From Escherichia phage PNJ1902, in the sequence record OK254197.1: a stretch of 64,000 nt of DNA; one strand, written 5' to 3'. A model generated the notes under the pieces. The model searched no databases and was not told where the DNA came from. It saw only the letters and a program-made list of their open reading frames with translations. A program made the translations under genes and the position numbers. Of the stretch, positions 3,765 through 33,811 are shown piece after piece (within the stretch, counting starts at the first letter, position 1; every line of letters begins with the position of its first letter).

Positions 3765-3960
3765 TTTTGTTCCTTTCTAAGAACGTATCATACTCAACCG
3801 TATCAACATATATAACACCATAGTCATCGGATTTATAGTCCATTTCCCACAGCTCACAGCGATAGCACCAACTACCATCCGCCCACACAAATATATCATC
3901 GGGATGTGTATACACAGGTTTAACTATGGACATATCTGTTTCCCTTGCTTCTCGACACAT
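3751..3960 (-). CDS. Hypothetical small protein
   Basis: ORF track, in operon context on minus strand. Confidence 0.35.
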   Translation of the reverse strand: MCREARETDMSIVKPVYTHPDDIFVWADGSWCYRCELWEMDYKSDDYGVIYVDTVEYDTFLERNKNGNK

Positions 3961-21042: not shown

Positions 21043-21117
21043 CGGGGTGTAGTCTAAGGGAGAGGCAGGAGTCTTCTAAATTCCTTTATGCAGGTTCGAA
21101 TCCTGTCACCTCGGCCA
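21043..21117 (+). tRNA. tRNA-Arg (anticodon UCU)
   Basis: Cloverleaf folded by hand: 7-bp acceptor, T-arm gcagg-ttcgaat-cctgt, anticodon loop cttctaa, encoded CCA. Confidence 0.65.
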
Positions 21118-21151
21118 ATTTTATTAACTGTAACTAAAACAAAGGAAATAT

Positions 21152-22099: not shown

Positions 22100-22124
22100 T
22101 AGTTACACGTAATCTTCGAACTAA

Positions 22125-22155
22125 GCCCGCGTTTTCTCCGAGAGCGCGGGCTTTT
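22125..22155 (+). terminator. Rho-independent terminator
   Basis: agcccgcg...cgcgggct + TTTT. Confidence 0.55.
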
Positions 22156-22183
22156 CTGTATTTAAGGCAAAAGAAAAAGCCCC

Positions 22184-22208
22184 TAAGTCTTTCGACTAGG
22201 GGCTTTAC
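22184..22208. terminator. Bidirectional terminator hairpin
   Basis: aaaaagcccctaagtctttcgactaggggcttt; A/T runs on both sides. Confidence 0.5.
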
Positions 22209-22219
22209 TGTTTGGTTCT

Positions 22220-22414
22220 TTAGAACCATATACTCTTGTTACAGCAACCACCCATACGGGAGGCCAATCTTGACTGAAAATCTACTCTAGGGGGCAGGAT
22301 AAGAGTAGGCTTAAAGGCAAACGGATTGAACGCCGGTATTTGCGTAAACATTGCTGGAGAGCAACAACGTGCTACAGGCATTGGGCAGCACGAAACAGAT
22401 TTTCTGCAACACAT
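22220..22414 (-). CDS. Hypothetical Cys-rich small protein
   Basis: ORF track; AGGAGG RBS 5 nt upstream of ATG on minus strand; 10 Cys in 64 aa. Confidence 0.4.
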   Translation of the reverse strand: MCCRKSVSCCPMPVARCCSPAMFTQIPAFNPFAFKPTLILPPRVDFQSRLASRMGGCCNKSIWF

Positions 22415-22423
22415 AATTCCTCC

Positions 22424-22840
22424 TTAGGAGTTATTACCACCATTTTGAGCTTTTGCAACTTGGCTTTGGCAGAAGCTATTAAACTTACCCATAAGTGATA
22501 CAAGCTGCTTCCCATCCTCTGTCTTTGCGAAGTCTTCGAAAAGGGCTAGTACTGCCTGTCCTTCCGCAGAAACCTGCGGTTGTTGGGTTTGTTGCTGAAC
22601 TTGCTGCTGCGGCATCTGTTGCTGCATTTGTTGGGGCATTTGCGACTGCCCGCTCATTTGCTGCATCATTTGCATAGGACTCACACTTCCAGGGTTTTGC
22701 TGGAGTTGTTGCTGCATCTGTTGCGCTTCTGCTAAACGCTGTTGCAATTGTTGTAAGTAGGGGTTATCCAGACCCGGAATGGGCTGCTGGGAGCCCATAC
22801 TTTGATTAAGTCCGTTATTTACAAAACCATATTTACTCAT
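22424..22840 (-). CDS. Gln-rich low-complexity protein
   Basis: ORF track; long Q/M-rich repeats. Confidence 0.45.
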   Translation of the reverse strand: MSKYGFVNNGLNQSMGSQQPIPGLDNPYLQQLQQRLAEAQQMQQQLQQNPGSVSPMQMMQQMSGQSQMPQQMQQQMPQQQVQQQTQQPQVSAEGQAVLALFEDFAKTEDGKQLVSLMGKFNSFCQSQVAKAQNGGNNS

Positions 22841-22861
22841 AATGGGCTCCTCCCCTTAATA

Positions 22862-23848
22862 TTAAGCCGGCAGTTTAGCCTGCAGACCAGCCAGAGTCTG
22901 AGTGATAGCACCAAGACTTAAAGCGATTTGATTAATTACCTGACCGTTAGCACCACTACCCGCAGCGATTGCTTCACGTAGGCGACATGCGTCTAACTCG
23001 TCCTGGATACGTGCAGTAGTTACACCAGCGATCGCAGTCTGAAGTTCACAGCAACATTCAGCGATCTGACGTTCCAGAGAGTTCTGGTTAGCACACATCT
23101 GAGCCTGAACAGCGGCAAACTGGTTATTAGTTTGTAAAGTCTGCTGGAAAGCGATCTGTGCAGAATCAAACTTATCTTGTGCACGAGCTATCTGGTTAGC
23201 TGCGAAAGATTGATCAATCTGGCGAGAAAGATCGAACTGACCCTGAATAACGTTGCGAGTTTCCTGGCAGATCTGATTAGACAGATTAGCACCTGTACCA
23301 TAGATCGTAGTTAGTACAGACTGAGTATCACGGCTCTGGTTTTGGGATGTCTGGCTAAAACCATTGTTAACTGCGCTTAAAACAGCCCCAGTACCCTGGT
23401 TAGCTTCTGTACGAGTAGTGTTAATAGCTGCTAGAATACTAGCGGTATCTTGATTCTGAAGTACTGCATCAACTGCGCTACCATCACCAACTACACCACG
23501 TCCACCGAATCCACCGAAACCACCGAATCCGCCTGTTAATAGAGCACCGATTAGGATAGCTCCGAATAGTCCCATACCTTCACCACCGAAAGCACCTGCG
23601 TTTGCTGGGTAACCACCTAGTAGGCCAGGGAAGCCACTAGTGAATACGTTTACTGGTTCTTGCATTTTATGTTTTCCATGTTTATGACAATGTTCATCAT
23701 CGTCATCTTCTTCATCATCATGTTCACGATGTTTTTCTTCGTAGGCTCTGACCTTCTCCCACTTTTTCTTATCTGATTCCTCGTGACGGTGCAGTTCTGC
23801 TGCAACGCTAGCGACGGTCTCAGGACTCTTAGCTACTTCTTCTGTCAT
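22862..23848 (-). CDS. Hypothetical protein with His/acidic N-terminus, Gly-rich hydrophobic segment and Q/N-rich coiled-coil region
   Basis: ORF track; upstream divergent promoter-like TTGACA-17-TAAAGT on minus strand. Confidence 0.5.
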   Translation of the reverse strand: MTEEVAKSPETVASVAAELHRHEESDKKKWEKVRAYEEKHREHDDEEDDDDEHCHKHGKHKMQEPVNVFTSGFPGLLGGYPANAGAFGGEGMGLFGAILIGALLTGGFGGFGGFGGRGVVGDGSAVDAVLQNQDTASILAAINTTRTEANQGTGAVLSAVNNGFSQTSQNQSRDTQSVLTTIYGTGANLSNQICQETRNVIQGQFDLSRQIDQSFAANQIARAQDKFDSAQIAFQQTLQTNNQFAAVQAQMCANQNSLERQIAECCCELQTAIAGVTTARIQDELDACRLREAIAAGSGANGQVINQIALSLGAITQTLAGLQAKLPA

Positions 23849-24055
23849 TTTTTAACACCTCCTAGTATATAGAAAATGTGTGTCTCTTTGATCACTCATC
23901 CATAACATATACTTTACACTACCCCAACAAAAATGTCAAGGGGTCTTTAAAAATTGCCCCCGGATTTTTAGTGGGGTCACAAATTTTGGTCCTCACCACT
24001 TATCTGCTACCCTTAAGTGCCCTATGATTTTCCTCTAAAAAGTTAAAAATTTTGA

Positions 24056-24084
24056 TTGCTTGAATGCTAAATTCTCTGTATAAT
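24056..24084 (+). promoter_or_regulatory. sigma70-type early promoter (TTGCTT-17-TATAAT)
   Basis: Read from sequence. Confidence 0.55.
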
Positions 24085-24114
24085 ATATCTATAAATTTGA
24101 GAGAGGAATAAGAT

Positions 24115-24633
24115 ATGAATGTTGATGAGCTAACACAGCACCTCTTATCTAGAGGATTTGATACAGATAAATATCATTGCTGGTTAAGCCCGGAAGGGTG
24201 GCTAACAGTCCCATTGTATGACTTCTCTGGGATGTTGCGGGGCTATCAGACGTATAATCCTTCTGCTCCAAAAGGGCATGGTAAGTGCCCCTTTGAGGCT
24301 AAATATTTTACCTACTCCACTACACAGTGTGTATGGGGACTAGAAACTCTCAATGGAGATGAAAAAGTAGTATTGATTGCTGAATCTGTATTTAAGGCAG
24401 TTGCATTACATAATGCTGGTTATCCAGCCCTAGCAATGTTGGGTTCTACCCCAGGAAAAGCGTTATTAAAGCAACTGAAATTACTACCTTTTAAATTGGT
24501 AGCTGTCGGGGATAATGATCCTGCGGGTGAAAAATTTGCTAGAAAATTGAACGGCTTTGTTTCTCCTGTAGATGTGGATGAGATGTCTACCGAAAACTTG
24601 AAAAATTTTCTTGCTATGAAGCTAAATTTCTAA
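24115..24633 (+). CDS. Toprim-domain protein (primase-like), putative
   Basis: VVLIAESVFKAVAL (Toprim Glu) and AVGDNDPAGEKFA (DxD) motifs. Confidence 0.45.
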   Translation: MNVDELTQHLLSRGFDTDKYHCWLSPEGWLTVPLYDFSGMLRGYQTYNPSAPKGHGKCPFEAKYFTYSTTQCVWGLETLNGDEKVVLIAESVFKAVALHNAGYPALAMLGSTPGKALLKQLKLLPFKLVAVGDNDPAGEKFARKLNGFVSPVDVDEMSTENLKNFLAMKLNF

Positions 24634-24654
24634 TATAATATATCTTATAAATTC

Positions 24655-24743
24655 GGAAGAATAGCATAACGGTATTGCAGCAGATTGCTAATCTGTCGGT
24701 TTGAAATATAGCCTTGTGGGTTCGATTCCCACTTCTTCCGCCA
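24655..24743 (+). tRNA. tRNA-Ser (anticodon GCU), class II
   Basis: Acceptor ggaagaa/ttcttcc, T-arm gtggg-ttcgatt-cccac, anticodon loop ttgctaa, long variable arm, encoded CCA. Confidence 0.65.
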
Positions 24744-24749
24744 GATTTT

Positions 24750-24827
24750 GGTTCTCAAGCTCATATGGTATGAGCACCCGGCTCATAACCGGAAGGTACG
24801 TAGGTTCGAATCCTCGGGGAGCCACCA
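24750..24827 (+). tRNA. tRNA with CAU anticodon (Met or Ile2)
   Basis: Acceptor ggttctc/gggagcc, D-arm gctc...gagc, anticodon loop ctcataa; T-stem partly mismatched. Confidence 0.5.
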
Positions 24828-24845
24828 ATTAAATAGAGGTCACAA

Positions 24846-25034
24846 ATGGATCTATATATAGTTTATGTTGTGTTTATTCAAGATAGAGAATACCCGGATG
24901 AATATAAAAAAGGATATAGGCTAGCCAGAGCTACCTCTGAAGCCCAAGCTATGGATAAAGTGGCAGATTATATGATTACGGTAGAAAACGTACACTATAT
25001 AGACTACCTCGAAGCCTCAAAAGTAATTGACTAA
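24846..25034 (+). CDS. Hypothetical small protein
   Basis: ORF track. Confidence 0.4.
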   Translation: MDLYIVYVVFIQDREYPDEYKKGYRLARATSEAQAMDKVADYMITVENVHYIDYLEASKVID

Positions 25035-25043
25035 GGAGACTAT

Positions 25044-25229
25044 ATGTCCAAGTTTCAAGAACTCAAGCAAGAGCTAGAAGAATGTGCCTGCCCTGAGTGT
25101 AGGGGAATTGGTGAAAGTTCTGATGCAGAAGCAGGAGATACTTTTTGCAATATCTGGGTTTGCCCAAATTGCAGTGGTACAGGTATTAATCCTAACTGTG
25201 GTATTTCCCTAGATATTGAACGAGGATAA
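25044..25229 (+). CDS. Small zinc-ribbon protein (CPECRG...CPNCSG)
   Basis: ORF track; two CxxC pairs. Confidence 0.4.
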   Translation: MSKFQELKQELEECACPECRGIGESSDAEAGDTFCNIWVCPNCSGTGINPNCGISLDIERG

Positions 25230-25330
25230 TACCTATGAAACTAAAAGATTATTATATTGGTTGGTTTGTGGGACTAGTAGTAGGATTTTCACTAGGCTAT
25301 AATATGTATCAACTAATAAACTGATTACAC

Positions 25331-25407
25331 GGGGGTGTAATCGAATTGGCATAGGTACTGGACTTAAAATTCAGGTTTTGTGGGTTCGAATCCCACCACC
25401 CCTACCA
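25331..25407 (+). tRNA. tRNA (anticodon tentatively UAA, Leu-like)
   Basis: Acceptor gggggtg/cacccct, T-arm gtggg-ttcgaat-cccac, CCA encoded; D-arm non-canonical. Confidence 0.45.
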
Positions 25408-25582
25408 AATTAAGGAAATAAGATGTATAGACATCCACCTCCGCCAACACGTCGTTCTAGGGAAGTTATCCTCATGGAATTGACTAAAAACTTCAAGGCA
25501 ACTCTTGAAGACAGAGATCTAGGCACGGATGAAGACATTGATTTTATTTGTAGACTATTAAAGATGAAACTGGAGAAAAAAC

Positions 25583-25789
25583 ATGGCTAATCCTGAAATT
25601 ACAGCACAACGTTTCATGCTTAAAGGCATGATTGCTGAGGCAGGTATAACTCAAGAGGTTGCAGATTTTCATAAGCAATTTCTTGACATTATAACTCTAG
25701 CTAAAGAGACTGGAGAAAAAGAGCATGGAGCGGCAATTATGGCTATATCTCTTATTAGTCTAGACTTGGCTGAAGAATCTGGAATTTAG
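25583..25789 (+). CDS. Hypothetical small protein
   Basis: ORF track. Confidence 0.4.
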   Translation: MANPEITAQRFMLKGMIAEAGITQEVADFHKQFLDIITLAKETGEKEHGAAIMAISLISLDLAEESGI

Positions 25790-25819
25790 CTCCTCCAAAC
25801 AGAATTTTTAAAAATGTAC

Positions 25820-25849
25820 TTGCCTTTTGCTTTAAATTTCTGATATAAT
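25820..25849 (+). promoter_or_regulatory. sigma70-type promoter (TTGCCT-18-TATAAT)
   Basis: Read from sequence. Confidence 0.45.
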
Positions 25850-25879
25850 AGTTATATAAATTGATGAAGGAGTTAATGA

Positions 25880-26155
25880 ATGCAAAATCGTGTTATAGCA
25901 GCTGGTATTGAAAGTGCAATCTGTAAATCCTGGGAAGGCTGGGAAGGTGAGATTGAATGGCTTTATTTCTACGATGTAGAACTTCTGCCGGAAATTAAAG
26001 CTAAATGTATTGAAGCTGGCATGGCTCCAGATGCAAAAGCTGATATTGATATTTCAATGTCTGAACTTAAAGGTCGTGTAATTACTGTTAGTGATGAGGG
26101 CGAAGAAGTTTTCGAACTTCCGTTCTCCTTAACTGTCGCTCCTAAGTTCGACTAA
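25880..26155 (+). CDS. Hypothetical protein
   Basis: ORF track; GAAGGAG RBS. Confidence 0.5.
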   Translation: MQNRVIAAGIESAICKSWEGWEGEIEWLYFYDVELLPEIKAKCIEAGMAPDAKADIDISMSELKGRVITVSDEGEEVFELPFSLTVAPKFD

Positions 26156-26191
26156 CTAATACAGCACTGAGCAAGTTCTTTAAAATTTGAC

Positions 26192-26220
26192 TTGCTCAGT
26201 GCCTTAAAACTTGGTATAAT
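26192..26220 (+). promoter_or_regulatory. sigma70-type promoter (TTGCTC-17-TATAAT) upstream of tRNA block
   Basis: Read from sequence. Confidence 0.5.
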
Positions 26221-26286
26221 AGTTATCTAATTTGGAAACATATTTAAAAGTGTTTAAATTAGAATTTTTTTGAATACTTCTAAATA

Positions 26287-26374
26287 TGGGGAAATATTCT
26301 GTAAGTGGTAGCAGAGCTGACTGTAAATCAGTTGTCATTGCGACTCGGGTGGTTCGACTCCATCTTTCCCCACC
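26287..26374 (+). tRNA. tRNA-Tyr (anticodon GUA), class II
   Basis: Acceptor ggggaaa/tttcccc, anticodon loop ctgtaaa, T-arm ggtgg-ttcgact-ccatc, CCA. Confidence 0.65.
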
Positions 26375-26380
26375 AATTTA

Positions 26381-26457
26381 AGTCCTGTTAGACAAACTGG
26401 TAAAGTCACTACCCTTTCAAGGTAGGATTTGCGGGTTCGATCCCCGCACAGGACGCC
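26381..26457 (+). tRNA. tRNA-Glu (anticodon UUC)
   Basis: Acceptor gtcctgt/acaggac, anticodon stem ctacc/ggtag, loop ctttcaa, T-arm gcggg-ttcgatc-cccgc, CCA. Confidence 0.65.
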
Positions 26458-26465
26458 AATTCCTG

Positions 26466-26542
26466 CATTCCTAGAGTGTTACTGGACAGCATGTCGGTCT
26501 CCAAAACCGTACGGTCTAGGTTCGAGTCCTAGTAGGTTTGCC
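26466..26542 (+). tRNA. tRNA-Trp-like (anticodon CCA), acceptor stem imperfect
   Basis: Anticodon arm cggt-ctccaaa-accg, T-arm ctagg-ttcgagt-cctag; 5' boundary uncertain. Confidence 0.4.
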
Positions 26543-26548
26543 AAAATT

Positions 26549-26623
26549 TGCACCTTTAGCTGAGATGGATTAGCGCTTGCCTGAAGAGCTTGAGAGGTTC
26601 GTTCGATACGAACAGGGTGCACC
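26549..26623 (+). tRNA. tRNA (anticodon not resolved)
   Basis: Acceptor gcacctt/agggtgc with CCA, T-arm gttcg-ttcgata-cgaac. Confidence 0.45.
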
Positions 26624-26641
26624 AATTTGAAGGAGCTGCTT

Positions 26642-26914
26642 ATGCATCCTGAAAACTTCTTTATTTACTGCGCGGATAAGTCGCTGAAACGTAGAATTAA
26701 CAAAGTCTATCATTATCGTGCTAGTCAACAGCCTTATGTATACGCTTTTGACGGTGATCACATTCCATTAGAACAATTATCTTGTGATTACATGATATTG
26801 AAGAACTTTGACGAGACAAAGATCTCAAGCGTTCACAATCGACAGAATCCATTAACGTGGAAATATAAGAAGAAAAAGAAAGGCATCAAATTCTTAAAAA
26901 ATGTAGTTGCTTAG
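26642..26914 (+). CDS. Hypothetical protein
   Basis: ATG 26642 after GAAGGAG; in-frame part of track ORF 26627..26914. Confidence 0.45.
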   Translation: MHPENFFIYCADKSLKRRINKVYHYRASQQPYVYAFDGDHIPLEQLSCDYMILKNFDETKISSVHNRQNPLTWKYKKKKKGIKFLKNVVA

Positions 26915-26935
26915 TTTCCAAAAGTTCTGTATAAT
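26907..26935 (+). promoter_or_regulatory. sigma70-type promoter (TTGCTT-17-TATAAT)
   Basis: Read from sequence. Confidence 0.55.
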
Positions 26936-26983
26936 AATTACATAAATTGAACTGGAGAAGCAACATGATAGAATAAGATAAAT

Positions 26984-27059
26984 CGACCGTTGGCTGAATG
27001 GCTTAGGCGAAGGATTGCAAATCCTTTTTATGTGAGTTCAAATCTCATGCGGTCGTCCA
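26984..27059 (+). tRNA. tRNA-Cys (anticodon GCA)
   Basis: Acceptor cgaccgt/gcggtcg, anticodon stem aagga/tcctt, loop ttgcaaa, T-arm gtgag-ttcaaat-ctcat, CCA. Confidence 0.65.
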
Positions 27060-27061
27060 AT

Positions 27062-27201
27062 TTGCTGAAAGAATTGTTTTAACAATTCAGGCACGCGTAG
27101 GAACACTGTCTCCGTAATTGAAAGATGAGGCACGGTTTGGAGAGGTATGCCGCTACACGCTACGGTGCTAACTCCGTCTAGGTGAAAATCCTAGTCAGCA
27201 A
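27062..27201 (+). ncRNA. Long tRNA-like element (about 140 nt) closed by a perfect 7-bp terminal helix
   Basis: ttgctga...tcagcaa closure; internal T-arm-like ctagg-tgaaaat-cctag. Confidence 0.3.
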
Positions 27202-27211
27202 TATAAATTTA

Positions 27212-27294
27212 GGGTCGTTAGCCAAGCGGTTTGGCGGTGGACTGTTAATCCATGTCGAAAGACAACGTAGGTTCGAATCCTACACGGCCCGCCA
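27212..27294 (+). tRNA. tRNA-Asn-like (anticodon GUU) with unusually long variable arm
   Basis: Acceptor gggtcgt/acggccc, D-stem gcca/tggc, anticodon loop ctgttaa, hairpinned 13-nt variable arm, CCA. Confidence 0.55.
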
Positions 27295-27396
27295 AATTCT
27301 GTGTAGAGTTAAGTAAACCGGTAGCCAACCAGCTATCATTGCTGACATCGAATTCAGCCACAGATACCATTTTCATTAATAACTGAGGAAACAAGC

Positions 27397-27582
27397 ATGT
27401 CCAAGAATGTAATTGCGCAGCTAGAAGTTCATCGTGATAGCACTATCAACAATATTGAAGTTGAGAAGAAATACATCGAAGAACTTAAACATGATATACT
27501 AGTAAGTCTTAATCGTCTTAATGTACGAAAAGAGTTTCTTAAGGAACTTAATGCAGCTATTGAAAAACTCAAAGCTGAGTAA
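27397..27582 (+). CDS. Hypothetical small protein
   Basis: ORF track; GAGGAAACAAGCATG. Confidence 0.45.
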   Translation: MSKNVIAQLEVHRDSTINNIEVEKKYIEELKHDILVSLNRLNVRKEFLKELNAAIEKLKAE

Positions 27583-27591
27583 ATGAATTAT

Positions 27592-27668
27592 GCGACAGGG
27601 GCTGGCTTGGTAATGGTACTCCCCTGTCACGGGAGAGAATGTGGGTTCGAATCCCATCGGTCGCGCCA
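27592..27668 (+). tRNA. tRNA-Asp (anticodon GUC)
   Basis: Anticodon stem ctccc/gggag, loop ctgtcac, T-arm gtggg-ttcgaat-cccat, CCA. Confidence 0.65.
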
Positions 27669-27694
27669 AATTAAACTAGCACGAGAAATATGCT

Positions 27695-28042
27695 ATGATT
27701 AATGCTAAAGAAGAGTTGTTACTTGCCCTAAAGAATACTAATTCTGAAGTTAAGTGTATTAAGATAGAATTCGGTTATTATGGAGACAAAGAAGTTTGGG
27801 TATTGCCCGTAGGTTATACAGAAAAAGATATTGAAGATTTTCTAAATAATCTAGACTTTAAATATGACTCGGGTTTCGGTGGACAATTGCTTTATGGTAA
27901 CGTATGGTTTACTGATGGAACTTGGTTAGAACGTGGTGAATATGATGGTTCTGAATGGTGGGAGTATAAGACTACACCAGCAATCCCTGAGGAATGCCGA
28001 ACAATTAATGGTGAAGTAGATAATACTTTACGGTTAAACTAA
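27695..28042 (+). CDS. Hypothetical protein
   Basis: ORF track. Confidence 0.5.
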   Translation: MINAKEELLLALKNTNSEVKCIKIEFGYYGDKEVWVLPVGYTEKDIEDFLNNLDFKYDSGFGGQLLYGNVWFTDGTWLERGEYDGSEWWEYKTTPAIPEECRTINGEVDNTLRLN

Positions 28043-28046
28043 TAAA

Positions 28047-28157
28047 ATTTCAGTGCAGAACACGGAGCTAGCAATTCGGAAGTGCTGACTCATGATAAGC
28101 TGCCTATGTACTTGCGAAGCGGTCGTGTCCAAGACTCGGACTCTTGCACTGAAAACA
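28047..28157 (+). ncRNA. Candidate structured RNA closed by 10-bp terminal helix
   Basis: tttcagtgca...tgcactgaaa complementarity; no ORF. Confidence 0.25.
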
Positions 28158-28165
28158 ATCAAACA

Positions 28166-28287
28166 TTCTAGCGTGGTTGATGGGGAAACCAGCTTGGCTA
28201 GGGCAGAAGCTCGTTCGATTCGAGTGAAAGAATGGTTCTCGTAAGTCCGCACAAGTGATAACAGGTTCGAGTCCTGTCTAGAATGAC
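28166..28287 (+). ncRNA. Long tRNA-like element (about 120 nt)
   Basis: 7-bp closure attctag/ctagaat, D-arm-like tggt...acca, T-arm acagg-ttcgagt-cctgt with about 60-nt insertion. Confidence 0.3.
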
Positions 28288-28434
28288 ACTATAAAGTTTA
28301 CTTATTATGTAGGTTCCGATAGATCGGCGGGTCTATTCTGGCATTTAAGAGAGGTCTCGCAAACTTCTTTGTCAGCCGTGGGGTTGGTAGCCTCCAGGTG
28401 GCCTACACAATAAGTAAATTTATTAAAAATTCAT

Positions 28435-28463
28435 TTGCTATTCTGCTTAATTCTCTGTATAAT
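28435..28463 (+). promoter_or_regulatory. sigma70-type early promoter (TTGCTA-17-TATAAT)
   Basis: Read from sequence. Confidence 0.55.
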
Positions 28464-28496
28464 ATATTTTATAAAGTGAAGAGAAGGAAAGCAAAA

Positions 28497-28655
28497 TGAA
28501 ACACAAGATAGCTCAAGTTTTTATGGCATTATGGTGTATGCCAGTAGCTATAACAGCATTTAATCTAGATACTTTTACTATAGAAGAAAAATGTATCGGG
28601 TTAGTTAGCGGCTTTAGTATGCTGGGCTTATCCTTGTTGTGGTTGAAGAAATAAT
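28497..28655 (+). CDS. Hypothetical 52-aa membrane protein
   Basis: ATG after GAAGGAAAG RBS downstream of promoter; hydrophobic. Confidence 0.35.
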
Positions 28656-28658
28656 ATT

Positions 28659-28736
28659 CTCCGTGTAGCTCAGTTTGGCCAGAGCGTTTCGTTTGGGGCG
28701 ATAGGGTCGGGGGTTCAAATCCTCCCACGGAGACCA
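28659..28736 (+). tRNA. tRNA-Pro (anticodon UGG)
   Basis: D-arm gctc...gagc, anticodon loop tttgggg, T-arm ggggg-ttcaaat-cctcc, CCA. Confidence 0.65.
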
Positions 28737-28742
28737 AACAAT

Positions 28743-28820
28743 TGCGGGTTAGATCTCTGGTAGAGATCGCTAGTCTCATAAGCTAGAAAGAGGTAGGTTC
28801 GATTCCTGCACCCGCTTCCA
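28743..28820 (+). tRNA. tRNA with CAU anticodon (Met/Ile2), 1-72 mismatch
   Basis: D-arm gatc...gatc, anticodon stem ctagt/gctag, loop ctcataa, T-arm gtagg-ttcgatt-cctgc. Confidence 0.55.
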
Positions 28821-28840
28821 TTTTAATAGAGGATTTCGAA

Positions 28841-29001
28841 ATGAAAGTATTTCGATTAGTAGTAAGTGACAAACGTTTAGGTAAGAATACATCAAAATCC
28901 TTAATCGCTCATTACGGTAAAAATTGGGATGAAGTAATGGCAGAGTTTAATACTAATCACCCTTACTTGAAAGTTCACTCTATTAAAGAAGTATACAATG
29001 G
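28841..29001 (+). CDS. Hypothetical 52-aa protein
   Basis: ATG 28841 after GAGGA; below ORF-track cutoff. Confidence 0.3.
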
Positions 29002-29009
29002 TTACTAAT

Positions 29010-29088
29010 AGATCGCTAGCTCAATAGGTTTAGTAGCATCCGACTTTTAATCGGAAGGTTCTGGGTTCGAGTCCCAGGCGATCTACCA
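29010..29088 (+). tRNA. tRNA-Lys (anticodon UUU)
   Basis: Acceptor agatcgc/gcgatct, anticodon stem tccga/tcgga, loop cttttaa, T-arm ctggg-ttcgagt-cccag, CCA. Confidence 0.7.
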
Positions 29089-29107
29089 ATTTCAAGAAAA
29101 ACGCAGT

Positions 29108-29135
29108 TGCTTGATGCTTAATTTCTTGTTATAAT
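29108..29135 (+). promoter_or_regulatory. sigma70-type promoter (TTGCTT-16-TATAAT)
   Basis: Read from sequence. Confidence 0.5.
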
Positions 29136-29182
29136 ATTTATATAAATTGATGAGGAGAGATCCTCATCATAGTTCACTAAGG

Positions 29183-29350
29183 TATTAGCTCGACCTAGGA
29201 CTGGCTGCCAAAAAGCACGATCCCTTCTACTTGGGAGAAGTTCTAGATTAGTCCACTAGATTCAGCGGCAACTGAATAGTGTATCGGGTTTGCGAGATGA
29301 CGCAGTTCCTTCCGCTCGAAGCGAAGGTGCTGTAGTTACGCCGAGCTAAT
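29183..29350 (+). ncRNA. Candidate structured RNA closed by 9-bp terminal helix
   Basis: attagctcg...cgagctaat complementarity; multiple internal hairpins; no ORF. Confidence 0.25.
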
Positions 29351-29373
29351 AGCCTTAGTAAACTAAAGATTTT

Positions 29374-29448
29374 GGGCGGTTAGTTTATCTGGGAAAATAC
29401 CTGACTTGCACTCAGGAGTGAGGAGTTCGACTCTCCTACTGTCCACCA
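29374..29448 (+). tRNA. tRNA-Ala (anticodon UGC)
   Basis: Anticodon stem cctga/tcagg, loop cttgcac, T-arm aggag-ttcgact-ctcct, CCA. Confidence 0.65.
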
Positions 29449-29466
29449 AATTAAAGGGTATGTAGT

Positions 29467-29967
29467 ATGAAGGTAGCTAAAAATGGGAGAAAAGATAACT
29501 TAAATGAGTTAGAAATATTCCTCCACAATAACAAACTAGACGTAACCGCTAGTAATTACATGCAAATAGCTCTATGGTATAATGGGTATATAGTTAGGAA
29601 GGCCAATCCTAGTAAGGATAAGAAGTCAAATACATACCAAAAGAGACTAGAGCATAGCTATCAAAGATCCCTAAGAGTAGTACAGCTTTATTGTTATATC
29701 AATAATATAAATAATAAGCTGGGATATATTTATATAATATCTAATCCAGCTTTTCCAGGCTGGTTTAAAGTAGGAGCAGCCAAAGATGCTGAGACTAGAT
29801 TAAATACCTATCAAACATACTCCCCTTTTCGGGACTATGTATTAGAGTATTATAAACTAGTAGATAATTATGAACTCAAAGAAAAAGAAATCCTAAGTTC
29901 TTTTTCATCTAGAAATAATGAGTGGGTTCATGCTCCACTTGAAGAAATAATTGCTTGCGTGGCGTAA
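29467..29967 (+). CDS. GIY-YIG / T5orf172-type nuclease-domain protein (homing-endonuclease-like)
   Basis: GYIYIISNPAFPGWFKVGAAKD...R...Y..Y...E motif; 3' end overlaps tRNA-Leu by about 15 nt. Confidence 0.5.
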   Translation: MKVAKNGRKDNLNELEIFLHNNKLDVTASNYMQIALWYNGYIVRKANPSKDKKSNTYQKRLEHSYQRSLRVVQLYCYINNINNKLGYIYIISNPAFPGWFKVGAAKDAETRLNTYQTYSPFRDYVLEYYKLVDNYELKEKEILSSFSSRNNEWVHAPLEEIIACVA

Positions 29968-30035
29968 TTGGTAGACGCGCGATCCTTAGGAGTTCGTGTT
30001 AATTCGTGTGGGTTCGAGTCCCTCCGCAAGCACCA
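29953..30035 (+). tRNA. tRNA-Leu (anticodon UAG), class II
   Basis: Acceptor gcttgcg/cgcaagc, D-loop aattggtagac, anticodon loop cttagga, long variable arm, CCA. Confidence 0.65.
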
Positions 30036-30039
30036 AATT

Positions 30040-30112
30040 TGATGGTCAGAGTAAATTAAACCTACTATCTCGGTTGAGCTGTTTTAATGGGTTCGAATCC
30101 CAGCGAGGCGTA
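30040..30112 (+). tRNA. Possible degenerate tRNA or pseudo-tRNA
   Basis: T-arm-like tggg-ttcgaat-ccca but no complementary acceptor strand found. Confidence 0.2.
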
Positions 30113-30147
30113 ACTGCCTGGTGTGATAGGGGCATCATCTTATTATT

Positions 30148-30238
30148 GGAAGAGCAAATCGAATTGGCGACGAAAACCGCTTGGAAAGTGGCTGACTGGT
30201 AAAACGGCTTGAGAGTTCAAATCTCTCCTCTTCCGCCA
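30148..30238 (+). tRNA. tRNA-Ser (anticodon GGA), class II
   Basis: Acceptor ggaagag/ctcttcc, anticodon loop ttggaaa, T-arm gagag-ttcaaat-ctctc, CCA. Confidence 0.65.
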
Positions 30239-30250
30239 AACAATTTATAT

Positions 30251-30345
30251 GGTAGGTCAATCCAACGGCTGGCGCTGGACTCCGACTTGAAATCGGTTGA
30301 TCGTAGTGATACGGTGTAAGGGTTCGATCCCCTTACCTACCTCCA
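30251..30345 (+). tRNA. tRNA-Ser (anticodon UGA), class II
   Basis: Acceptor ggtaggt/acctacc, anticodon loop cttgaaa, T-arm aaggg-ttcgatc-ccctt, CCA. Confidence 0.6.
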
Positions 30346-30350
30346 AATCT

Positions 30351-30482
30351 TGAAGTATGCCGGAATTGGTAGACGGGGCTGCCTAAAAGGTTTATAGAGA
30401 ACATCCACTCTCTACAACATACCTCATAAAGCGGCTGAGATAAATGGTCTATCTCGTGAAGGTTCAAGTCCTTCTGCTTCTT
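30351..30482 (+). ncRNA. Long tRNA-like element with Leu-type D-arm and canonical T-arm, about 55-nt insertion
   Basis: D-loop aattggtagac, T-arm gaagg-ttcaagt-ccttc, acceptor-like pairing of ends. Confidence 0.3.
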
Positions 30483-30711
30483 GATACATCTATGGCTCAA
30501 AGTGTAACGGTGCTATTTGATGCTCTTAGTAAGACTTCCCCGACATGCGTTCGGGAGTAAGCTGCTAAGGCTAGGGTAGAAGAGTTTCGGAGAGCCGCCA
30601 CAATTGAAAATTCGTACTCGTCTTGAGCTGCGTGCAATAGGAGATAACTTGATTAGTATTCTAGAACATGCTAATTGAGGAAGGTTTCGCTAACCCTGCG
30701 AGTTTTCAATT

Positions 30712-30788
30712 GTGGCTATATCATAATTGGTTAATGATCCTGATTGTGAATCAGGCCTATGTGGATTCGAATTCCACTAGCCACCCCA
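30712..30788 (+). tRNA. tRNA-His (anticodon GUG)
   Basis: Acceptor gtggcta/tagccac, anticodon stem cctga/tcagg, loop ttgtgaa, T-arm gtgga-ttcgaat-tccac, CCA. Confidence 0.7.
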
Positions 30789-30813
30789 AATTAACTTAAA
30801 TAGGAAATAAAAT

Positions 30814-31008
30814 ATGGCTGATTTCTGCAAACAATGCTCCATTGATATGTGGGGCAGAGATACTGGTGATCTTTCTGGTTTGATTACAGAAGCTGAAGTT
30901 AAAGAAGGCTACGGTGCTGTTGTGATTTGCGAGGGATGCGGAGTTATTCGAGTAGATCATGAAGGCAAACGTTTGGAAGAATCTGAGCCAACAACAATTT
31001 TTCCGTAG
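30814..31008 (+). CDS. Small Cys-rich (zinc-binding-like) protein
   Basis: ORF track; CKQC...CEGC. Confidence 0.45.
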   Translation: MADFCKQCSIDMWGRDTGDLSGLITEAEVKEGYGAVVICEGCGVIRVDHEGKRLEESEPTTIFP

Positions 31009-31020
31009 AATAAAAATTAT

Positions 31021-31096
31021 TGGGATGTAGATCAATTGGCAGATCGTCGGCCTCTGACTCCGAAGGTTCCACGTTCGATCCGTGGCATCCCAGCCA
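31021..31096 (+). tRNA. tRNA-Gln (anticodon CUG)
   Basis: Acceptor tgggatg/catccca, loop ctctgac, T-arm ccacg-ttcgatc-cgtgg, CCA. Confidence 0.6.
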
Positions 31097-31102
31097 AATA
31101 AT

Positions 31103-31178
31103 TGGAGAGTAGTGTAACGGTTAGCACAACGGCCTTTGACTCCGTTAATGGTAGGTTCGATTCCTCCTTCTCCAGCCA
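31103..31178 (+). tRNA. tRNA-Gln (anticodon UUG)
   Basis: Acceptor tggagag/ttctcca, D-arm gtgt...caca, loop ctttgac, CCA. Confidence 0.55.
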
Positions 31179-31186
31179 AACAATAA

Positions 31187-31262
31187 GCGGTTAAGCACAC
31201 GGGTTGTGCCGCAGGCCTTCCAAGCCTCGCTGAGTAGGGTTCGATTCCCTCTAGCCGCTCCA
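31187..31262 (+). tRNA. tRNA-Gly (anticodon UCC)
   Basis: Acceptor gcggtta/tagccgc, loop cttccaa, T-arm taggg-ttcgatt-ccctc, CCA. Confidence 0.55.
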
Positions 31263-31278
31263 ACTTTAAGGAAACGTT

Positions 31279-31533
31279 ATGCACGTTTTTGAATTTCGTA
31301 ATAAAAGTACCGATAAACGAGTTATTGTTATTGGGGAAACATACCGAGCATACGAACAAACTGACGGCTCTGTTATCCTGAATGATGAGAAAGGAGGTTT
31401 TAGCTTTTATCCAGAAGAACCTTATGAAGAGTTTCGAAAACAATTTAACCTAGACTGGAGAAAGCATTTAAACACTGTTGCTTCATCTGTAATACTGCCA
31501 ACTACCAGTACTGAGTCCTCTAATGGCCGATAA
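31279..31533 (+). CDS. Hypothetical protein
   Basis: ORF track. Confidence 0.5.
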   Translation: MHVFEFRNKSTDKRVIVIGETYRAYEQTDGSVILNDEKGGFSFYPEEPYEEFRKQFNLDWRKHLNTVASSVILPTTSTESSNGR

Positions 31534-31687
31534 CCTAAAAGTAAAGATCGATAAACAAAAGAAACGTGTAGAAGTAGAGATTGGTGAAGAACGTGTAGCC
31601 TTCACCTTTGAATTTCTACAACAAATGGCAATGACAGTTATGACTGACAAGTCTCCTATTATTGAAAAAGAAATCCCGTTGGAATAA
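31523..31687 (+). CDS. Hypothetical 54-aa protein
   Basis: ATG overlapping previous stop; below ORF-track cutoff. Confidence 0.3.
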   Translation: MADNLKVKIDKQKKRVEVEIGEERVAFTFEFLQQMAMTVMTDKSPIIEKEIPLE

Positions 31688-31695
31688 CGGGTTCT

Positions 31696-31782
31696 GCTGG
31701 GTTGGCAGAATGGTTGAATGCACCTGATTTGTAATCAGGAGGAGTAATCCCGTTGCAGGTTCGAATCCTGTGCCCAGCACCA
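31696..31782 (+). tRNA. tRNA-Thr-like (anticodon UGU) with long hairpinned variable arm
   Basis: Acceptor gctgggt/gcccagc, anticodon stem cctga/tcagg, loop tttgtaa, T-arm gcagg-ttcgaat-cctgt, CCA. Confidence 0.55.
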
Positions 31783-31797
31783 ATTTAAGGATTAGTA

Positions 31798-31964
31798 TGT
31801 TTAAACTCCTAGTAGTTATCTGGTATAGCCAATCAAACAGAGCTAATACCTCTCACGTTATAGACTTTAATACTAAAAATGAAGCTGAAGAAGCATATGC
31901 TAATTTAATACAACGTAATAAAGAATCTCGTAGTATAGTTTATGAAGTGACTAAACTTTATTAA
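31798..31964 (+). CDS. Hypothetical 55-aa protein
   Basis: ATG 31798 after AAGGA; track ORF 31770 start would overlap tRNA. Confidence 0.35.
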
Positions 31965-31973
31965 AAATTCATT

Positions 31974-32001
31974 TGCCTTCTCTCTTATTTCTTGTTATAA
32001 T
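31974..32001 (+). promoter_or_regulatory. sigma70-type promoter (TTGCCT-16-TATAAT)
   Basis: Read from sequence. Confidence 0.5.
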
Positions 32002-32031
32002 ATTTATATAAATTAATGAGAGGGAAACCAA

Positions 32032-32325
32032 ATGAAACGTTATCTTTCTGTTATGTTCCAAACTGGTGGTCAACGCTATACTTATGAATTTCCTAGCTCT
32101 TGGAAGATCAAAGAAGGTGATCAAGTAGTAGTGTTAACACCGCGCGAGGGTTTCAAGGTAGTAACGGTTAAGCAAGTATTTCCAAAAGATCGTGAACCAG
32201 CTAAAGGCATTCGCTATAAGATGATTCATGGTGTAGTTCGTCAAGTACCACGAGCGGAAGTCGAAATCAAAGTAGATAAAGATGGTAAACTTAAATATAC
32301 CTCTTGCTTAGACGAGTTGCTATAA
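32032..32325 (+). CDS. Hypothetical protein
   Basis: ORF track; GAGGGAAACCAAATG. Confidence 0.5.
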   Translation: MKRYLSVMFQTGGQRYTYEFPSSWKIKEGDQVVVLTPREGFKVVTVKQVFPKDREPAKGIRYKMIHGVVRQVPRAEVEIKVDKDGKLKYTSCLDELL

Positions 32326-32531
32326 TGAGAATTACTTTCACAGAAAAGATTATGGGTAATGGTGTTATGATCATTACCGCATGGGATGGTAATCAGTGGT
32401 GTAGTGTTTCAGGTATTAAGCCTGAAGAACAAACACTAGAAAATATCTCAAAGATTAAGCGAAGAATGGCAGAACGTGCACGACTTCCAGGTGCGCCTAG
32501 AAATGGTAAACGTTCTGCAATTAAATATTAA
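32325..32531 (+). CDS. Hypothetical protein
   Basis: ATG 32325 overlapping previous stop. Confidence 0.4.
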   Translation: MRITFTEKIMGNGVMIITAWDGNQWCSVSGIKPEEQTLENISKIKRRMAERARLPGAPRNGKRSAIKY

Positions 32532-32532
32532 T

Positions 32533-32609
32533 GCTTCGGTAGCTTAGCGATCTAAAGCACTCGGCTGATAACCGAGAGATCGGGGGTTTAAATCCCTCCC
32601 GGAGTACCA
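32533..32609 (+). tRNA. tRNA-Ile (anticodon GAU)
   Basis: D-arm gctt...aagc, anticodon stem ctcgg/ccgag, loop ctgataa, T-arm ggggg-tttaaat-ccctc, CCA. Confidence 0.65.
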
Positions 32610-32705
32610 AATTTAGGAATTAAGACTATGCGTCCAGGAAAGTTTAAAAAAGCTAATTGGTCTAAAGAGTATAAAGAATACTTACTTAGTCTAGTAAAAC
32701 ATAAC

Positions 32706-32781
32706 AGTTAGTTGGCAGAGTGGTTATGCACCTCCTTCATACGGAGCGACTACAGTGGTTCAAATCCACTACTAACTACCA
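32706..32781 (+). tRNA. tRNA with CAU anticodon (Met/fMet/Ile2)
   Basis: Acceptor agttagt/actaact, loop ttcatac, T-arm agtgg-ttcaaat-ccact, CCA. Confidence 0.6.
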
Positions 32782-33055: not shown

Positions 33056-33424
33056 ATGAAAGCATATCAAAATCTTAAATCTGGCGTAATTAACCTTGTT
33101 CATGAAAATCAGATTATTCAGCTATACTCCGACAATGGTGAACTTAAACAGAAAGTTCTAGTTGAAGATCTAGAAGGTATCACACCACAATTCGATCCCG
33201 AAGCCTTCCGTGAAGTCAAAGTGGAAGTCGCCCCTCAAATCGAAGGTGGTCAGCACCTAAATGTCAATGTGTTAAGCCGTGATCAGCTTTTGGATGCGCA
33301 GAAACATCCTGAAAAATATCCTCAGTTGACCATCCGTGTTTCCGGGTACGCTGTACGTTTTAATGCACTGACTCGTGAACAGCAGAACGACGTTATTAGT
33401 CGTACATTTACTCAGGCGATGTAA
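33056..33424 (+). CDS. grcA: Autonomous glycyl-radical cofactor (GrcA/YfiD-like)
   Basis: C-terminal half [11 protein letters not shown]...[37 protein letters not shown] closely matches the E. coli YfiD/GrcA sequence as I recall it, including the RVSGY glycyl-radical motif. Confidence 0.8.
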
Positions 33425-33505
33425 TGGGGTTTGGATACGATTTCTACCAGCTACGCAAGGTAGTCGAGCAAACTCCATTTATCTCCCAAGTTTTAGGAGA
33501 AATGT

Positions 33506-33811
33506 GTGGATCGAGCATTAAGACGCCATCACCGGCAACGTGTGAAGAACAACCGCAAGAAGTATTGGACAGTCTTTCCACATGAAGAAAGCCCTAAGCG
33601 GTTAGGTATTGTCACTACTACTCCTTGCATCTGTTCTTGTTGGATGTGTGGGAACCCTCGCAAATACTATAAGAATAGTAAAGCAGGCATGAAAACCTCG
33701 GAGATCCGGAAAATGGAAGCGATGATTGCTGACATCACCTATACTGGTGGTATTTCAAATGATGAATTTGATGGCTTCGTGGCGTTCGAAGATGAACGCC
33801 CCGATCTGTAA
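33506..33811 (+). CDS. Hypothetical basic Cys-containing protein
   Basis: ORF track (GTG start after AGGAGAAA). Confidence 0.4.
   Translation: MDRALRRHHRQRVKNNRKKYWTVFPHEESPKRLGIVTTTPCICSCWMCGNPRKYYKNSKAGMKTSEIRKMEAMIADITYTGGISNDEFDGFVAFEDERPDL

What the first reader, a model, noticed from the sequence alone, without database searches (positions are those of the whole stretch)
33056..33424. Phage-encoded GrcA/YfiD-like autonomous glycyl-radical cofactor alongside NrdD but with no NrdG activase in the window
The 122-aa protein's C-terminal half closely matches the E. coli GrcA (YfiD) sequence as I recall it, including the RVSGY glycyl-radical loop. The phage also encodes class III RNR NrdD (5533..7407), whose own glycyl radical is oxygen-sensitive, yet no radical-SAM activase gene is seen nearby. 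The phage may rely on host activases and might use the GrcA-like protein to repair or substitute damaged glycyl-radical domains under microaerobic conditions.
Basis: partly seen in the sequence, partly recalled or inferred. Interest (0 to 1): 0.7.

Follow-up and report, generated by a model that had tools for sequence, protein, structure and literature searches.

The report
Phage copy of PFL spare-part protein
A T5-like phage carries a small GrcA/YfiD-type "spare part" protein that most likely repairs the host's oxygen-damaged pyruvate formate-lyase; this gene family is already known in phages (T4 Y06I was tested in 2001) and already annotated in T5-like genomes, so the finding is real but ordinary.

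Summary
ORF 33056..33424 (+) encodes a 122-aa protein. Its C-terminal 62 residues are 79% identical to the last 62 residues of E. coli PflB and 77% identical to E. coli GrcA, with an intact RVSGYAV glycyl-radical loop (Gly97).

The window comes from a T5-like phage (Tequintavirus). The gene is the ortholog of T5.056, is present in about 430 T5-like genomes, and is under strong purifying selection. It is a full-length homolog (52.7% identity, same PHROG) of T4 vs.6/Y06I. According to the literature, Y06I restores activity to oxygen-cleaved host PFL after activation by the host enzyme PFL-AE.

NrdD at 5533..7407 is confirmed, but it lies on the minus strand. No NrdG or PflA homolog exists in the window or in the complete genomes of phages S131 and T5. 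NrdD without NrdG was already reported for T5-type phages.

The suggestion that the small protein repairs NrdD is not supported: it has no similarity to the phage's own NrdD (E = 5.7). Dependence on host activases is plausible. The NrdD glycyl loop is nearly identical to that of E. coli NrdD.

Low novelty.

The parts
33056..33424 (+). GrcA/YfiD-like autonomous glycyl-radical protein gene, 122 aa; ortholog of T5.056 and homolog of T4 vs.6/Y06I
   Evidence: ORF. Pfam Gly_radical. PHROG 1209 full-length match at 8e-48. Best PDB hit is YfiD, 1.4e-30. 100% identical to the proteins of Salmonella phages Th1 and S131 and 52.7% identical to T4. pN/pS = 0.10.
33236..33421 (+). C-terminal glycyl-radical domain (aa 61-122), colinear with PflB 698-759 and YfiD 66-127
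   Evidence: 79% identical to PflB and 77% to GrcA; 45 of 62 residues identical in all three. The predicted fold matches 6OWR (TM 0.74 normalised to the target) and 2PFL. pN/pS = 0.03.
33335..33355 (+). RVSGYAV loop (aa 94-100); radical glycine Gly97 at codon 33344..33346
   Evidence: Read directly from the sequence. Invariant in 53 homologs.
33056..33235 (+). Divergent N-terminal half (aa 1-60), corresponding to the YfiD 1-60 region reported to help cPFL binding and activation
   Evidence: Not covered by the NCBIfam GrcA model, which matches only aa 50-122. It aligns full-length within PHROG 1209. Q5 and R52 are nearly invariant across phage and bacterial homologs. pN/pS = 0.16. The role of YfiD 1-60 is taken from PMC8683613.
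33045..33050 (+). Shine-Dalgarno-like GGGGAG, 5 nt upstream of the ATG
31973..32001 (+). Sigma-70-like promoter (TTGCCT-17-TATAAT with extended -10 TG). It sits where T5 promoter P11 is annotated and is the likely start of the early transcript carrying tRNA-Ile, tRNA-Met and the GrcA-like gene (inferred).
   Evidence: Consensus scan. T5 annotation shows P11 upstream of T5.058, the tRNAs, T5.056 and T5.055, followed by a terminator.
33506..33811 (+). Downstream co-oriented ORF, 101 aa, T5.055 family. Basic N-terminus and Cys cluster CICSCWMC. Context gene of unknown function, not an activase.
5533..7407 (-). Class III ribonucleotide reductase NrdD, 624 aa, no ATP-cone. Glycyl site RRVCGYLG with Gly594 (codon 5626..5628); Zn-ribbon cysteines CGKC and CPIC.

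Best explanation
The gene encodes a phage version of the GrcA/YfiD 'spare part' protein. Under microaerobic conditions, O2 cleaves the host's active pyruvate formate-lyase (PflB) at its glycyl radical (Gly734), which removes the C-terminal 25 residues. The phage protein's C-terminal 62 residues duplicate PflB 698-759. They are expected to dock into the cleaved enzyme, receive a new glycyl radical on Gly97 from the host radical-SAM activase PflA (PFL-AE), and so restore PFL activity.

T5-type phages degrade host DNA and shut off host gene expression, so the infected cell cannot make its own GrcA or new PflB. An early-expressed phage copy would keep acetyl-CoA, formate and ATP production running for the infection. 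This rationale is inference.

What is shown here: sequence and predicted-fold membership, an intact activase-recognition loop, purifying selection, and absence of any phage activase. What comes from the literature on the T4 homolog: activation by host PFL-AE and rescue of cleaved PFL. What is inferred: the physiological benefit to the phage.

Separately, the phage's NrdD must be activated by the host's NrdG.
For: - **Family matches.** Pfam Gly_radical E = 3.7e-18. The top NCBIfam families are GrcA, GrcA3 and GrcA2, followed by PFL. The PDB search ranks YfiD first and the PflB C-terminus second.
- **Similarity to the host targets.** Over 62 aa the protein is 79% identical to PflB and 77% to GrcA. 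Ten of its 13 differences from PflB fall at positions where GrcA and PflB also differ from each other. The other three are conservative: E713D, S741A and S758A.
- **Activase loop.** RVSGYAV and 39 other positions are invariant across 53 phage and bacterial homologs.
- **Link to the tested T4 protein.** Full-length PHROG 1209 match and 52.7% identity to T4 vs.6/Y06I. Y06I is one of only two experimentally validated PFL spare parts and is activated by host PFL-AE (PMC8683613, citing Wagner et al. 2001).
- **Predicted structure.** The C-half matches the YfiD NMR structure and the PFL crystal structures.
- **Selection.** pN/pS is 0.03 in the C-half and 0.16 in the N-half across 9 T5-like orthologs, with dS up to 0.5.
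- **Host range.** Homologs occur in 1584 phage records, nearly all from phages of PFL-containing Enterobacteria, Vibrio and Aeromonas.
- **No phage activase.**
- **Host shutoff.** The T5 A1 annotation describes host DNA degradation and shutoff of host genes.
Against: - The T5-type protein itself has not been tested, and no paper on it was found.
- It scores below the NCBIfam equivalog cutoffs (121 against 170 bits), because its N-terminal 49 residues do not fit the bacterial GrcA model. In YfiD that N-terminal half matters for binding cleaved PFL.
- The validated T4 protein is a weaker proxy than it looks. Its C-half is a near-exact copy of E. coli grcA (98.9% nucleotide identity), whereas the T5-type C-half has 13-14 substitutions.
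- The proposed benefit to the phage is inference only.
Confidence: 0.8

Rival explanations
1. One reading: the small protein repairs or substitutes the oxygen-damaged glycyl-radical domain of the phage's own class III reductase NrdD.
For: Both genes are in the same genome and both proteins carry glycyl-radical chemistry. The literature speculates that spare parts might exist for other glycyl radical enzymes (PMC8683613).
Against: There is no detectable similarity between the two proteins (BLASTP E = 5.7). The NrdD C-terminal domain has a different loop (RRVCGYLG) and a Zn-ribbon that the small protein lacks. The small protein instead copies PflB 698-759. The genes are 26 kb apart, on opposite strands, in separate transcription units. 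T4 Y06I acts on PFL.
Confidence: 0.03
2. Decoy or modulator: the protein competes with host PflB, GrcA or TdcE for the activase PflA, or occupies cleaved PFL unproductively. This would redirect host fermentation rather than repair it.
For: It keeps the exact PFL-AE recognition loop, while its N-terminal half differs from the bacterial one. Nothing computed here distinguishes productive from unproductive binding.
Against: Conservation extends over the whole 62-residue domain that rebuilds the PFL active site, not just the activase loop; 45 of 62 residues are identical in the phage protein, PflB and GrcA. C-half pN/pS is 0.03. The T4 homolog restores activity.
Confidence: 0.08
3. Non-functional remnant of a captured host pflB or grcA 3' end, carried passively in the tRNA region.
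For: Some phages carry split or truncated versions. KMB39 has vs.6 in two pieces and Citrobacter phage YZU-L1 has a 67-aa form, P0033. The gene sits in a mosaic region rich in small ORFs and homing endonucleases.
Against: The full 122-aa ORF is intact in all 9 orthologs examined, with pN/pS = 0.10 at dS up to 0.5. It has a good ribosome-binding site. About 435 phage records hold a copy at 80% identity or more.
Confidence: 0.04

Closest known systems
Bacteriophage T4 vs.6 / Y06I (PHROG 1209), autonomous glycyl radical cofactor
   Same: Same size (120 aa against 122 aa). Full-length homology at 52.7% identity, with the same MKAYQ N-terminus. Same RVSGYAV loop and PFL-like C-terminal domain. Encoded by a lytic enterobacterial phage that also carries nrdD.
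   Different: The T4 C-half is 98.9% nucleotide-identical to E. coli grcA, which points to recent gene conversion. The T5-type C-half is an older, diverged copy whose best E. coli DNA match is the pflB 3' end at 78.5%. T4 encodes its own NrdG; T5-type phages encode no activase at all. The T5-type N-half carries a small insertion and differs at most positions.
E. coli GrcA (YfiD), TIGR04365, PDB 6OWR
   Same: A stand-alone protein of about 14 kDa. The C-terminal 62 residues are 77% identical. The predicted fold matches the NMR structure. The glycine loop is the same.
   Different: It scores below the equivalog cutoff (121 against 170 bits), and the model covers only aa 50-122. The N-terminal half is only weakly alignable. 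It is expressed from a phage early operon within a tRNA cluster rather than from a host stress-regulated promoter.
E. coli pyruvate formate-lyase PflB, C-terminal residues 698-759
   Same: 79% amino-acid and 78.5% nucleotide identity over the final 62 codons, including Gly734 and its loop.
   Different: The phage protein lacks the roughly 700-residue catalytic barrel with Cys418/Cys419, so it cannot be a formate-lyase by itself. The common database label 'pyruvate formate-lyase' is therefore a misnomer.

Membership tests
Autonomous glycyl radical cofactor GrcA/YfiD | Small stand-alone protein (about 120-127 aa) whose only recognisable domain is a C-terminal glycyl-radical domain | tested here: met
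   122 aa. The single Pfam hit is PF01228 at aa 62-103, matching profile positions 65-106 of 106.
Autonomous glycyl radical cofactor GrcA/YfiD | RVSGYAV loop with the radical-bearing glycine (PFL-AE substrate motif) | tested here: met
   aa 94-100, with Gly97. Invariant across 53 homologs.
Autonomous glycyl radical cofactor GrcA/YfiD | C-terminal domain colinear with, and highly similar to, PflB 693-759 | tested here: met
   79% identity over PflB 698-759; substitutions fall almost entirely at positions that also vary between GrcA and PflB.
Autonomous glycyl radical cofactor GrcA/YfiD | Score above the NCBIfam equivalog cutoff (TIGR04365, or GrcA2 / GrcA3) | tested here: not met
   121 against 170 bits, 117 against 158, and 90.7 against 145. 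The match covers aa 50-122 only. The protein is therefore a homolog of the family, not an NCBI-defined equivalog of bacterial GrcA.
Autonomous glycyl radical cofactor GrcA/YfiD | Fold of the C-terminal half: beta strand, Gly loop, C-terminal helix, as in 6OWR and PFL | tested here: met
   In the AF2 model (mean pLDDT 73) the C-half matches 6OWR (E = 6.9e-6, TM to target 0.74) and 2PFL. This is a prediction only.
Autonomous glycyl radical cofactor GrcA/YfiD | N-terminal half homologous to YfiD 1-60 (cPFL recognition) | tested here: inconclusive
   The alignment is weak and only Q5 and R52 are nearly invariant. AF2 predicts a beta-rich N-half for both the phage protein and bacterial GrcA, although NMR finds YfiD 1-60 disordered.
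Autonomous glycyl radical cofactor GrcA/YfiD | Glycyl radical installed by PFL-AE; restores activity of O2-cleaved PFL | not testable with these tools
   Reported only for E. coli YfiD and T4 Y06I (PMC8683613).
Phage Y06I / vs.6 family (PHROG 1209) | Full-length match to the phage family profile | tested here: met
   E = 8e-48, aa 1-122 against profile positions 1-121 of 121. 52.7% identity to T4 over 100% of the length.
Class III ribonucleotide reductase NrdD (ORF 5533..7407, minus strand) | NrdD equivalog score, glycyl loop RVCGY and C-terminal Zn-ribbon cysteines | tested here: met
   NF006732 scores 842 against a cutoff of 657 bits. 54% identical to E. coli NrdD. Gly594, CGKC and CPIC are present.
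Class III RNR system NrdDG | Cognate radical-SAM activase NrdG encoded with NrdD | tested here: not met
   No NrdG or PflA homolog in the window or in the S131 and T5 complete genomes; the positive control was found. Consistent with PMC3653736.
Radical-SAM activase (considered for ORF 33506..33811) | Radical-SAM domain of about 150 aa or more, with a CxxxCxxC cluster | tested here: not met
   A literal CICSCWMC is present, but the protein is only 101 aa. It has no Pfam or NCBIfam hit and matches PHROG 4499, of unknown function.

The most novel reading that the evidence does not exclude
T5-type phages may run two glycyl-radical systems entirely on host activases: NrdD through host NrdG, and the GrcA-like protein through host PflA. 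On this reading the GrcA-like gene is a true auxiliary metabolic gene. Because T5 destroys host DNA and shuts off host expression, the phage copy would be the only source of PFL repair during infection, and it would measurably raise phage yield in the fluctuating-oxygen gut environment. This has not been tested for any phage in vivo.
Probability: 0.4. Interest if true: 0.4.

Novelty: already known. Interest (0 to 1): 0.2.

Why it matters
The gene shows a lytic phage carrying a repair part for a host fermentation enzyme. This is a neat example of a phage maintaining host energy metabolism under microaerobic stress. However, the concept was established for T4 Y06I in 2001, the gene is annotated in hundreds of T5-like genomes, and nrdD-without-nrdG was catalogued in 2013. 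What remains open is the in vivo benefit to any phage, and whether the diverged T5-type protein behaves like YfiD.

Tried and rejected
1. **NrdD spare part.** Rejected. BLASTP of the small protein against the phage's own NrdD gives E = 5.7.
2. **Hidden activase.** A six-frame CxxxCxxC scan plus tblastn with T4 NrdG, E. coli NrdG and PflA was run on the window, S131 and T5. Only noise was found, while the positive control worked.
3. **Downstream Cys-cluster ORF 33506..33811 as a mini-activase.** Rejected. It is 101 aa with no radical-SAM hit.
4. **A phage-specific structured N-terminal domain.** AF2 predicts a beta-rich N-half. It predicts the same for bacterial GrcA, whose N-half is disordered by NMR, so this is not a distinguishing feature. 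Foldseek found no match for the N-half.
5. **Literature on the T5 ortholog.** Four searches found nothing specific.
6. **Literature on cross-activation of phage NrdD by host NrdG.** Nothing usable was found.

Full report
**What is there**

ORF 33056..33424 (+) is a clean 122-aa reading frame with an ATG start and a GGGGAG ribosome-binding site 5 nt upstream. Its only Pfam domain is Gly_radical (PF01228, E = 3.7e-18, aa 62-103, matching the last 42 positions of the profile).

- The best NCBIfam families are the three GrcA models (TIGR04365 121 bits, GrcA3 117 bits, GrcA2 91 bits), followed by pyruvate formate-lyase. None of the GrcA models reaches its equivalog cutoff, because only aa 50-122 fit.
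- Among solved structures the best hit is YfiD/GrcA (6OWR, E = 1.4e-30), then the C-terminus of E. coli PflB, residues 698-759 (E = 5e-27).
- RVSGYAV occupies aa 94-100, with the radical glycine at Gly97 (codon 33344..33346).

**Which genome**

The window is a T5-like phage (Demerecviridae, Tequintavirus). The 3-kb surroundings are 98.5-98.7% identical to Salmonella phages L6jm, S130/S131 and X5, and 449 phage records match. The protein is 100% identical to that of phages Th1 and S131.

- About 435 records hold a copy at 80% identity or more. In total 1584 phage records hold a homolog, nearly all from phages of Escherichia, Salmonella, Klebsiella, Shigella, Enterobacter, Aeromonas, Yersinia and Citrobacter.
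- In the T5 reference genome the ortholog is T5.056, labelled 'putative acetyltransferase-related protein, InterPro IPR001150'. It lies at the end of the tRNA cluster, downstream of promoter P11. It is followed by T5.055 and then a terminator.
- The window has the same layout. There are 21 tRNA genes at 21043..32781, a strong sigma-70-like site at 31973..32001, the GrcA-like gene, and then the T5.055 homolog at 33506..33811.
- Database labels for the gene vary: 'pyruvate formate-lyase', 'acetyltransferase-related', 'ribonucleotide reductase subunit', 'autonomous glycyl radical cofactor GrcA'. Only the last is appropriate, because the protein lacks the catalytic barrel.

**Relation to the characterised proteins**

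The protein matches PHROG 1209 over its full length (E = 8e-48) and is 52.7% identical over 100% of its length to T4 vs.6, which is Swiss-Prot Y06I.

According to Andorfer et al. 2021 (PMC8683613), which cites Wagner et al. 2001:

- YfiD of E. coli and Y06I of T4 are the only two validated 'spare part' proteins.
- Each receives a glycyl radical from the host PFL activase and restores activity to PFL that O2 has cleaved at Gly734.
- YfiD residues 61-127 have the fold of PFL 693-759.
- The N-terminal 60 residues are disordered in solution but improve cPFL binding and radical installation.

Residues 61-122 of the window protein align without gaps to PflB 698-759 (79% identity) and to GrcA 66-127 (77%).

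- 45 of 62 positions are identical in all three.
- Of the 13 differences from PflB, 10 lie at positions where GrcA also differs from PflB.
- The other three are conservative: E713D, S741A and S758A.
- Across 53 phage and bacterial homologs, 39 positions of the C-half are invariant.
- An AF2 model (mean pLDDT 73) places the C-half on the YfiD NMR structure (Foldseek E = 6.9e-6, TM 0.74 normalised to the target) and on PFL crystal structures.

**Is it functional?**

Nine T5-type orthologs, with synonymous divergence up to about 0.5, all keep the intact 122-codon frame. Pooled pN/pS is 0.03 for the C-half, 0.16 for the N-half and 0.10 overall. Both halves are under purifying selection, so this is not a decaying fragment.

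**The NrdD and NrdG part of the claim**

ORF 5533..7407 is NrdD, but on the minus strand. Supporting results are Pfam NRDD E = 3.8e-172 and NCBIfam NF006732 at 842 bits against a cutoff of 657. It is 54% identical to E. coli NrdD over 595 aa. It lacks the N-terminal ATP-cone, as T4 NrdD does.

No activase is encoded.

- tblastn with T4 NrdG, E. coli NrdG (taken from a genome record) and E. coli PflA gives only E >= 0.16 noise. This holds for the window, the complete S131 genome (110,091 bp) and the complete T5 genome (121,750 bp).
- The same queries recover T4 nrdG at 1e-108, 7e-47 and 7e-12.
- The only CxxxCxxC string in the window or in S131 lies in the 101-aa T5.055 homolog. That ORF has no radical-SAM signature.
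- The glycyl segment of the phage NrdD (VTRRVCGYLGNPGARPFNPGKQHEVMGRVKH) is almost the same as that of E. coli NrdD (VTRRVCGYLGSPDARPFNAGKQEEVKRRVKH). It is closer to the host than T4's segment (TIRRTCGYLGNPNERGFNLGKNKEIMHRVKH) is.
- This fits activation by host NrdG, but that remains an inference.

**Does the small protein serve NrdD?**

No evidence supports this. BLASTP between the two phage proteins gives E = 5.7. The NrdD C-terminal domain has a different loop and a Zn-ribbon (CGKC, CPIC). The genes are 26 kb apart, on opposite strands, in separate transcription units. The sequence points to host PflB as the target.

**Most likely mechanism**

1. The gene is expressed early, together with the phage tRNAs.
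2. Host PFL is cleaved by O2 in microaerobic conditions.
3. The phage protein binds cleaved PFL, its C-half replacing the lost glycyl-radical domain.
4. Host PflA installs the radical on Gly97.
5. PFL flux (acetyl-CoA, formate, and ATP through Pta-AckA) continues.

T5 degrades host DNA and shuts off host genes (A1 annotation). The host therefore cannot supply new GrcA or PflB, which gives a rationale for a phage-borne copy. Steps 2-4 are taken from the T4 and E. coli biochemistry. Step 1 and the rationale are inferred.

**Novelty**

The finding is already known. The family was characterised in a phage in 2001. The T5 ortholog is flagged with a glycyl-radical InterPro domain in the reference record. 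Some records already call it GrcA. The nrdD-only configuration is published. No paper on the T5-type protein itself was found in the searchable library, so its biochemistry and any in vivo benefit remain untested.

**Side observations**

- T4 vs.6 is a mosaic. Its 3' half is 98.9% nucleotide-identical to E. coli grcA in every one of 5426 E. coli genomes. The T5-type 3' half is only 78.5% identical to its best E. coli match, which is pflB.
- AF2 predicts a beta-rich N-half for both the phage protein and bacterial GrcA, despite the NMR finding of disorder.
- The T5.055-family ORF downstream is invariant across T5-like phages and carries a basic N-terminus and a Cys cluster of unknown function.

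Noticed in passing
L006:301-663 (T4 vs.6/Y06I), compared with window 33056..33424: T4 Y06I is a mosaic. Nucleotides 179-363 are 98.9% identical to E. coli grcA in all 5426 complete E. coli genomes, while its 5' half has no E. coli match. This implies recent gene conversion with the host gene. The T5-type gene's 3' half best matches the pflB 3' end at only 78.5%. The one experimentally validated phage spare part therefore carries an essentially host-identical functional domain.
   Followed up: partly
window 33506..33811 (+): A 101-aa ORF (GTG start, AGGAG ribosome-binding site) lies directly downstream of the GrcA-like gene. It is the T5.055 / PHROG 4499 homolog. It has a basic N-terminus (RALRRHHRQRVKNNRKKYW) and a Cys cluster (TTPCICSCWMCGNPRKY), and its first ~75 residues are nearly invariant in 9 T5-like phages. 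It has no Pfam or NCBIfam hit. It holds the only literal CxxxCxxC in the genome but is too short for a radical-SAM enzyme, so its function is unknown. An alternative 53-aa ORF (33424..33585) overlaps the GrcA stop codon (TAATG); annotators of different genomes disagree on which ORF to call.
   Followed up: partly
window 33056..33235 (aa 1-60), compared with bacterial GrcA P0107: AlphaFold2 predicts a four- to five-stranded beta-rich N-terminal half at pLDDT about 80-87 for both the phage protein and bacterial GrcA. The YfiD NMR structure reports residues 1-60 as disordered. The prediction may reflect a fold adopted on binding cleaved PFL.
   Followed up: partly
window 5533..7407 (-): The phage NrdD lacks the N-terminal ATP-cone; the alignment starts at residue 113 of E. 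coli NrdD and model position 87 of 712. Its glycyl-radical segment is closer to E. coli NrdD than T4 NrdD's segment is. In T5 the gene is annotated as monocistronic, with its own promoter and terminator.
   Followed up: partly
window 21043..32781 (+): A cluster of 21 tRNA genes, interspersed with small ORFs, lies immediately upstream of the GrcA-like gene. The last two, tRNA-Ile(GAU) and tRNA-Met(CAU), are probably on the same early transcript as that gene.
   Followed up: no
window 3258..4756 (-): Two ORFs near NrdD correspond to genes labelled Sir2 (NAD-dependent deacetylase) in the S131 and T5 records: a 278-aa ORF at 3920..4756 and a 168-aa ORF at 3258..3764. They were not examined here.
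   Followed up: no
L005:3772-4189 (Escherichia phage KMB39) and P0033 (Citrobacter phage YZU-L1, 67 aa): Some phages carry the GrcA-like gene split into two ORFs, or as a C-terminal-only 67-aa form. This suggests that the N-terminal half is occasionally lost or frameshifted.
   Followed up: no
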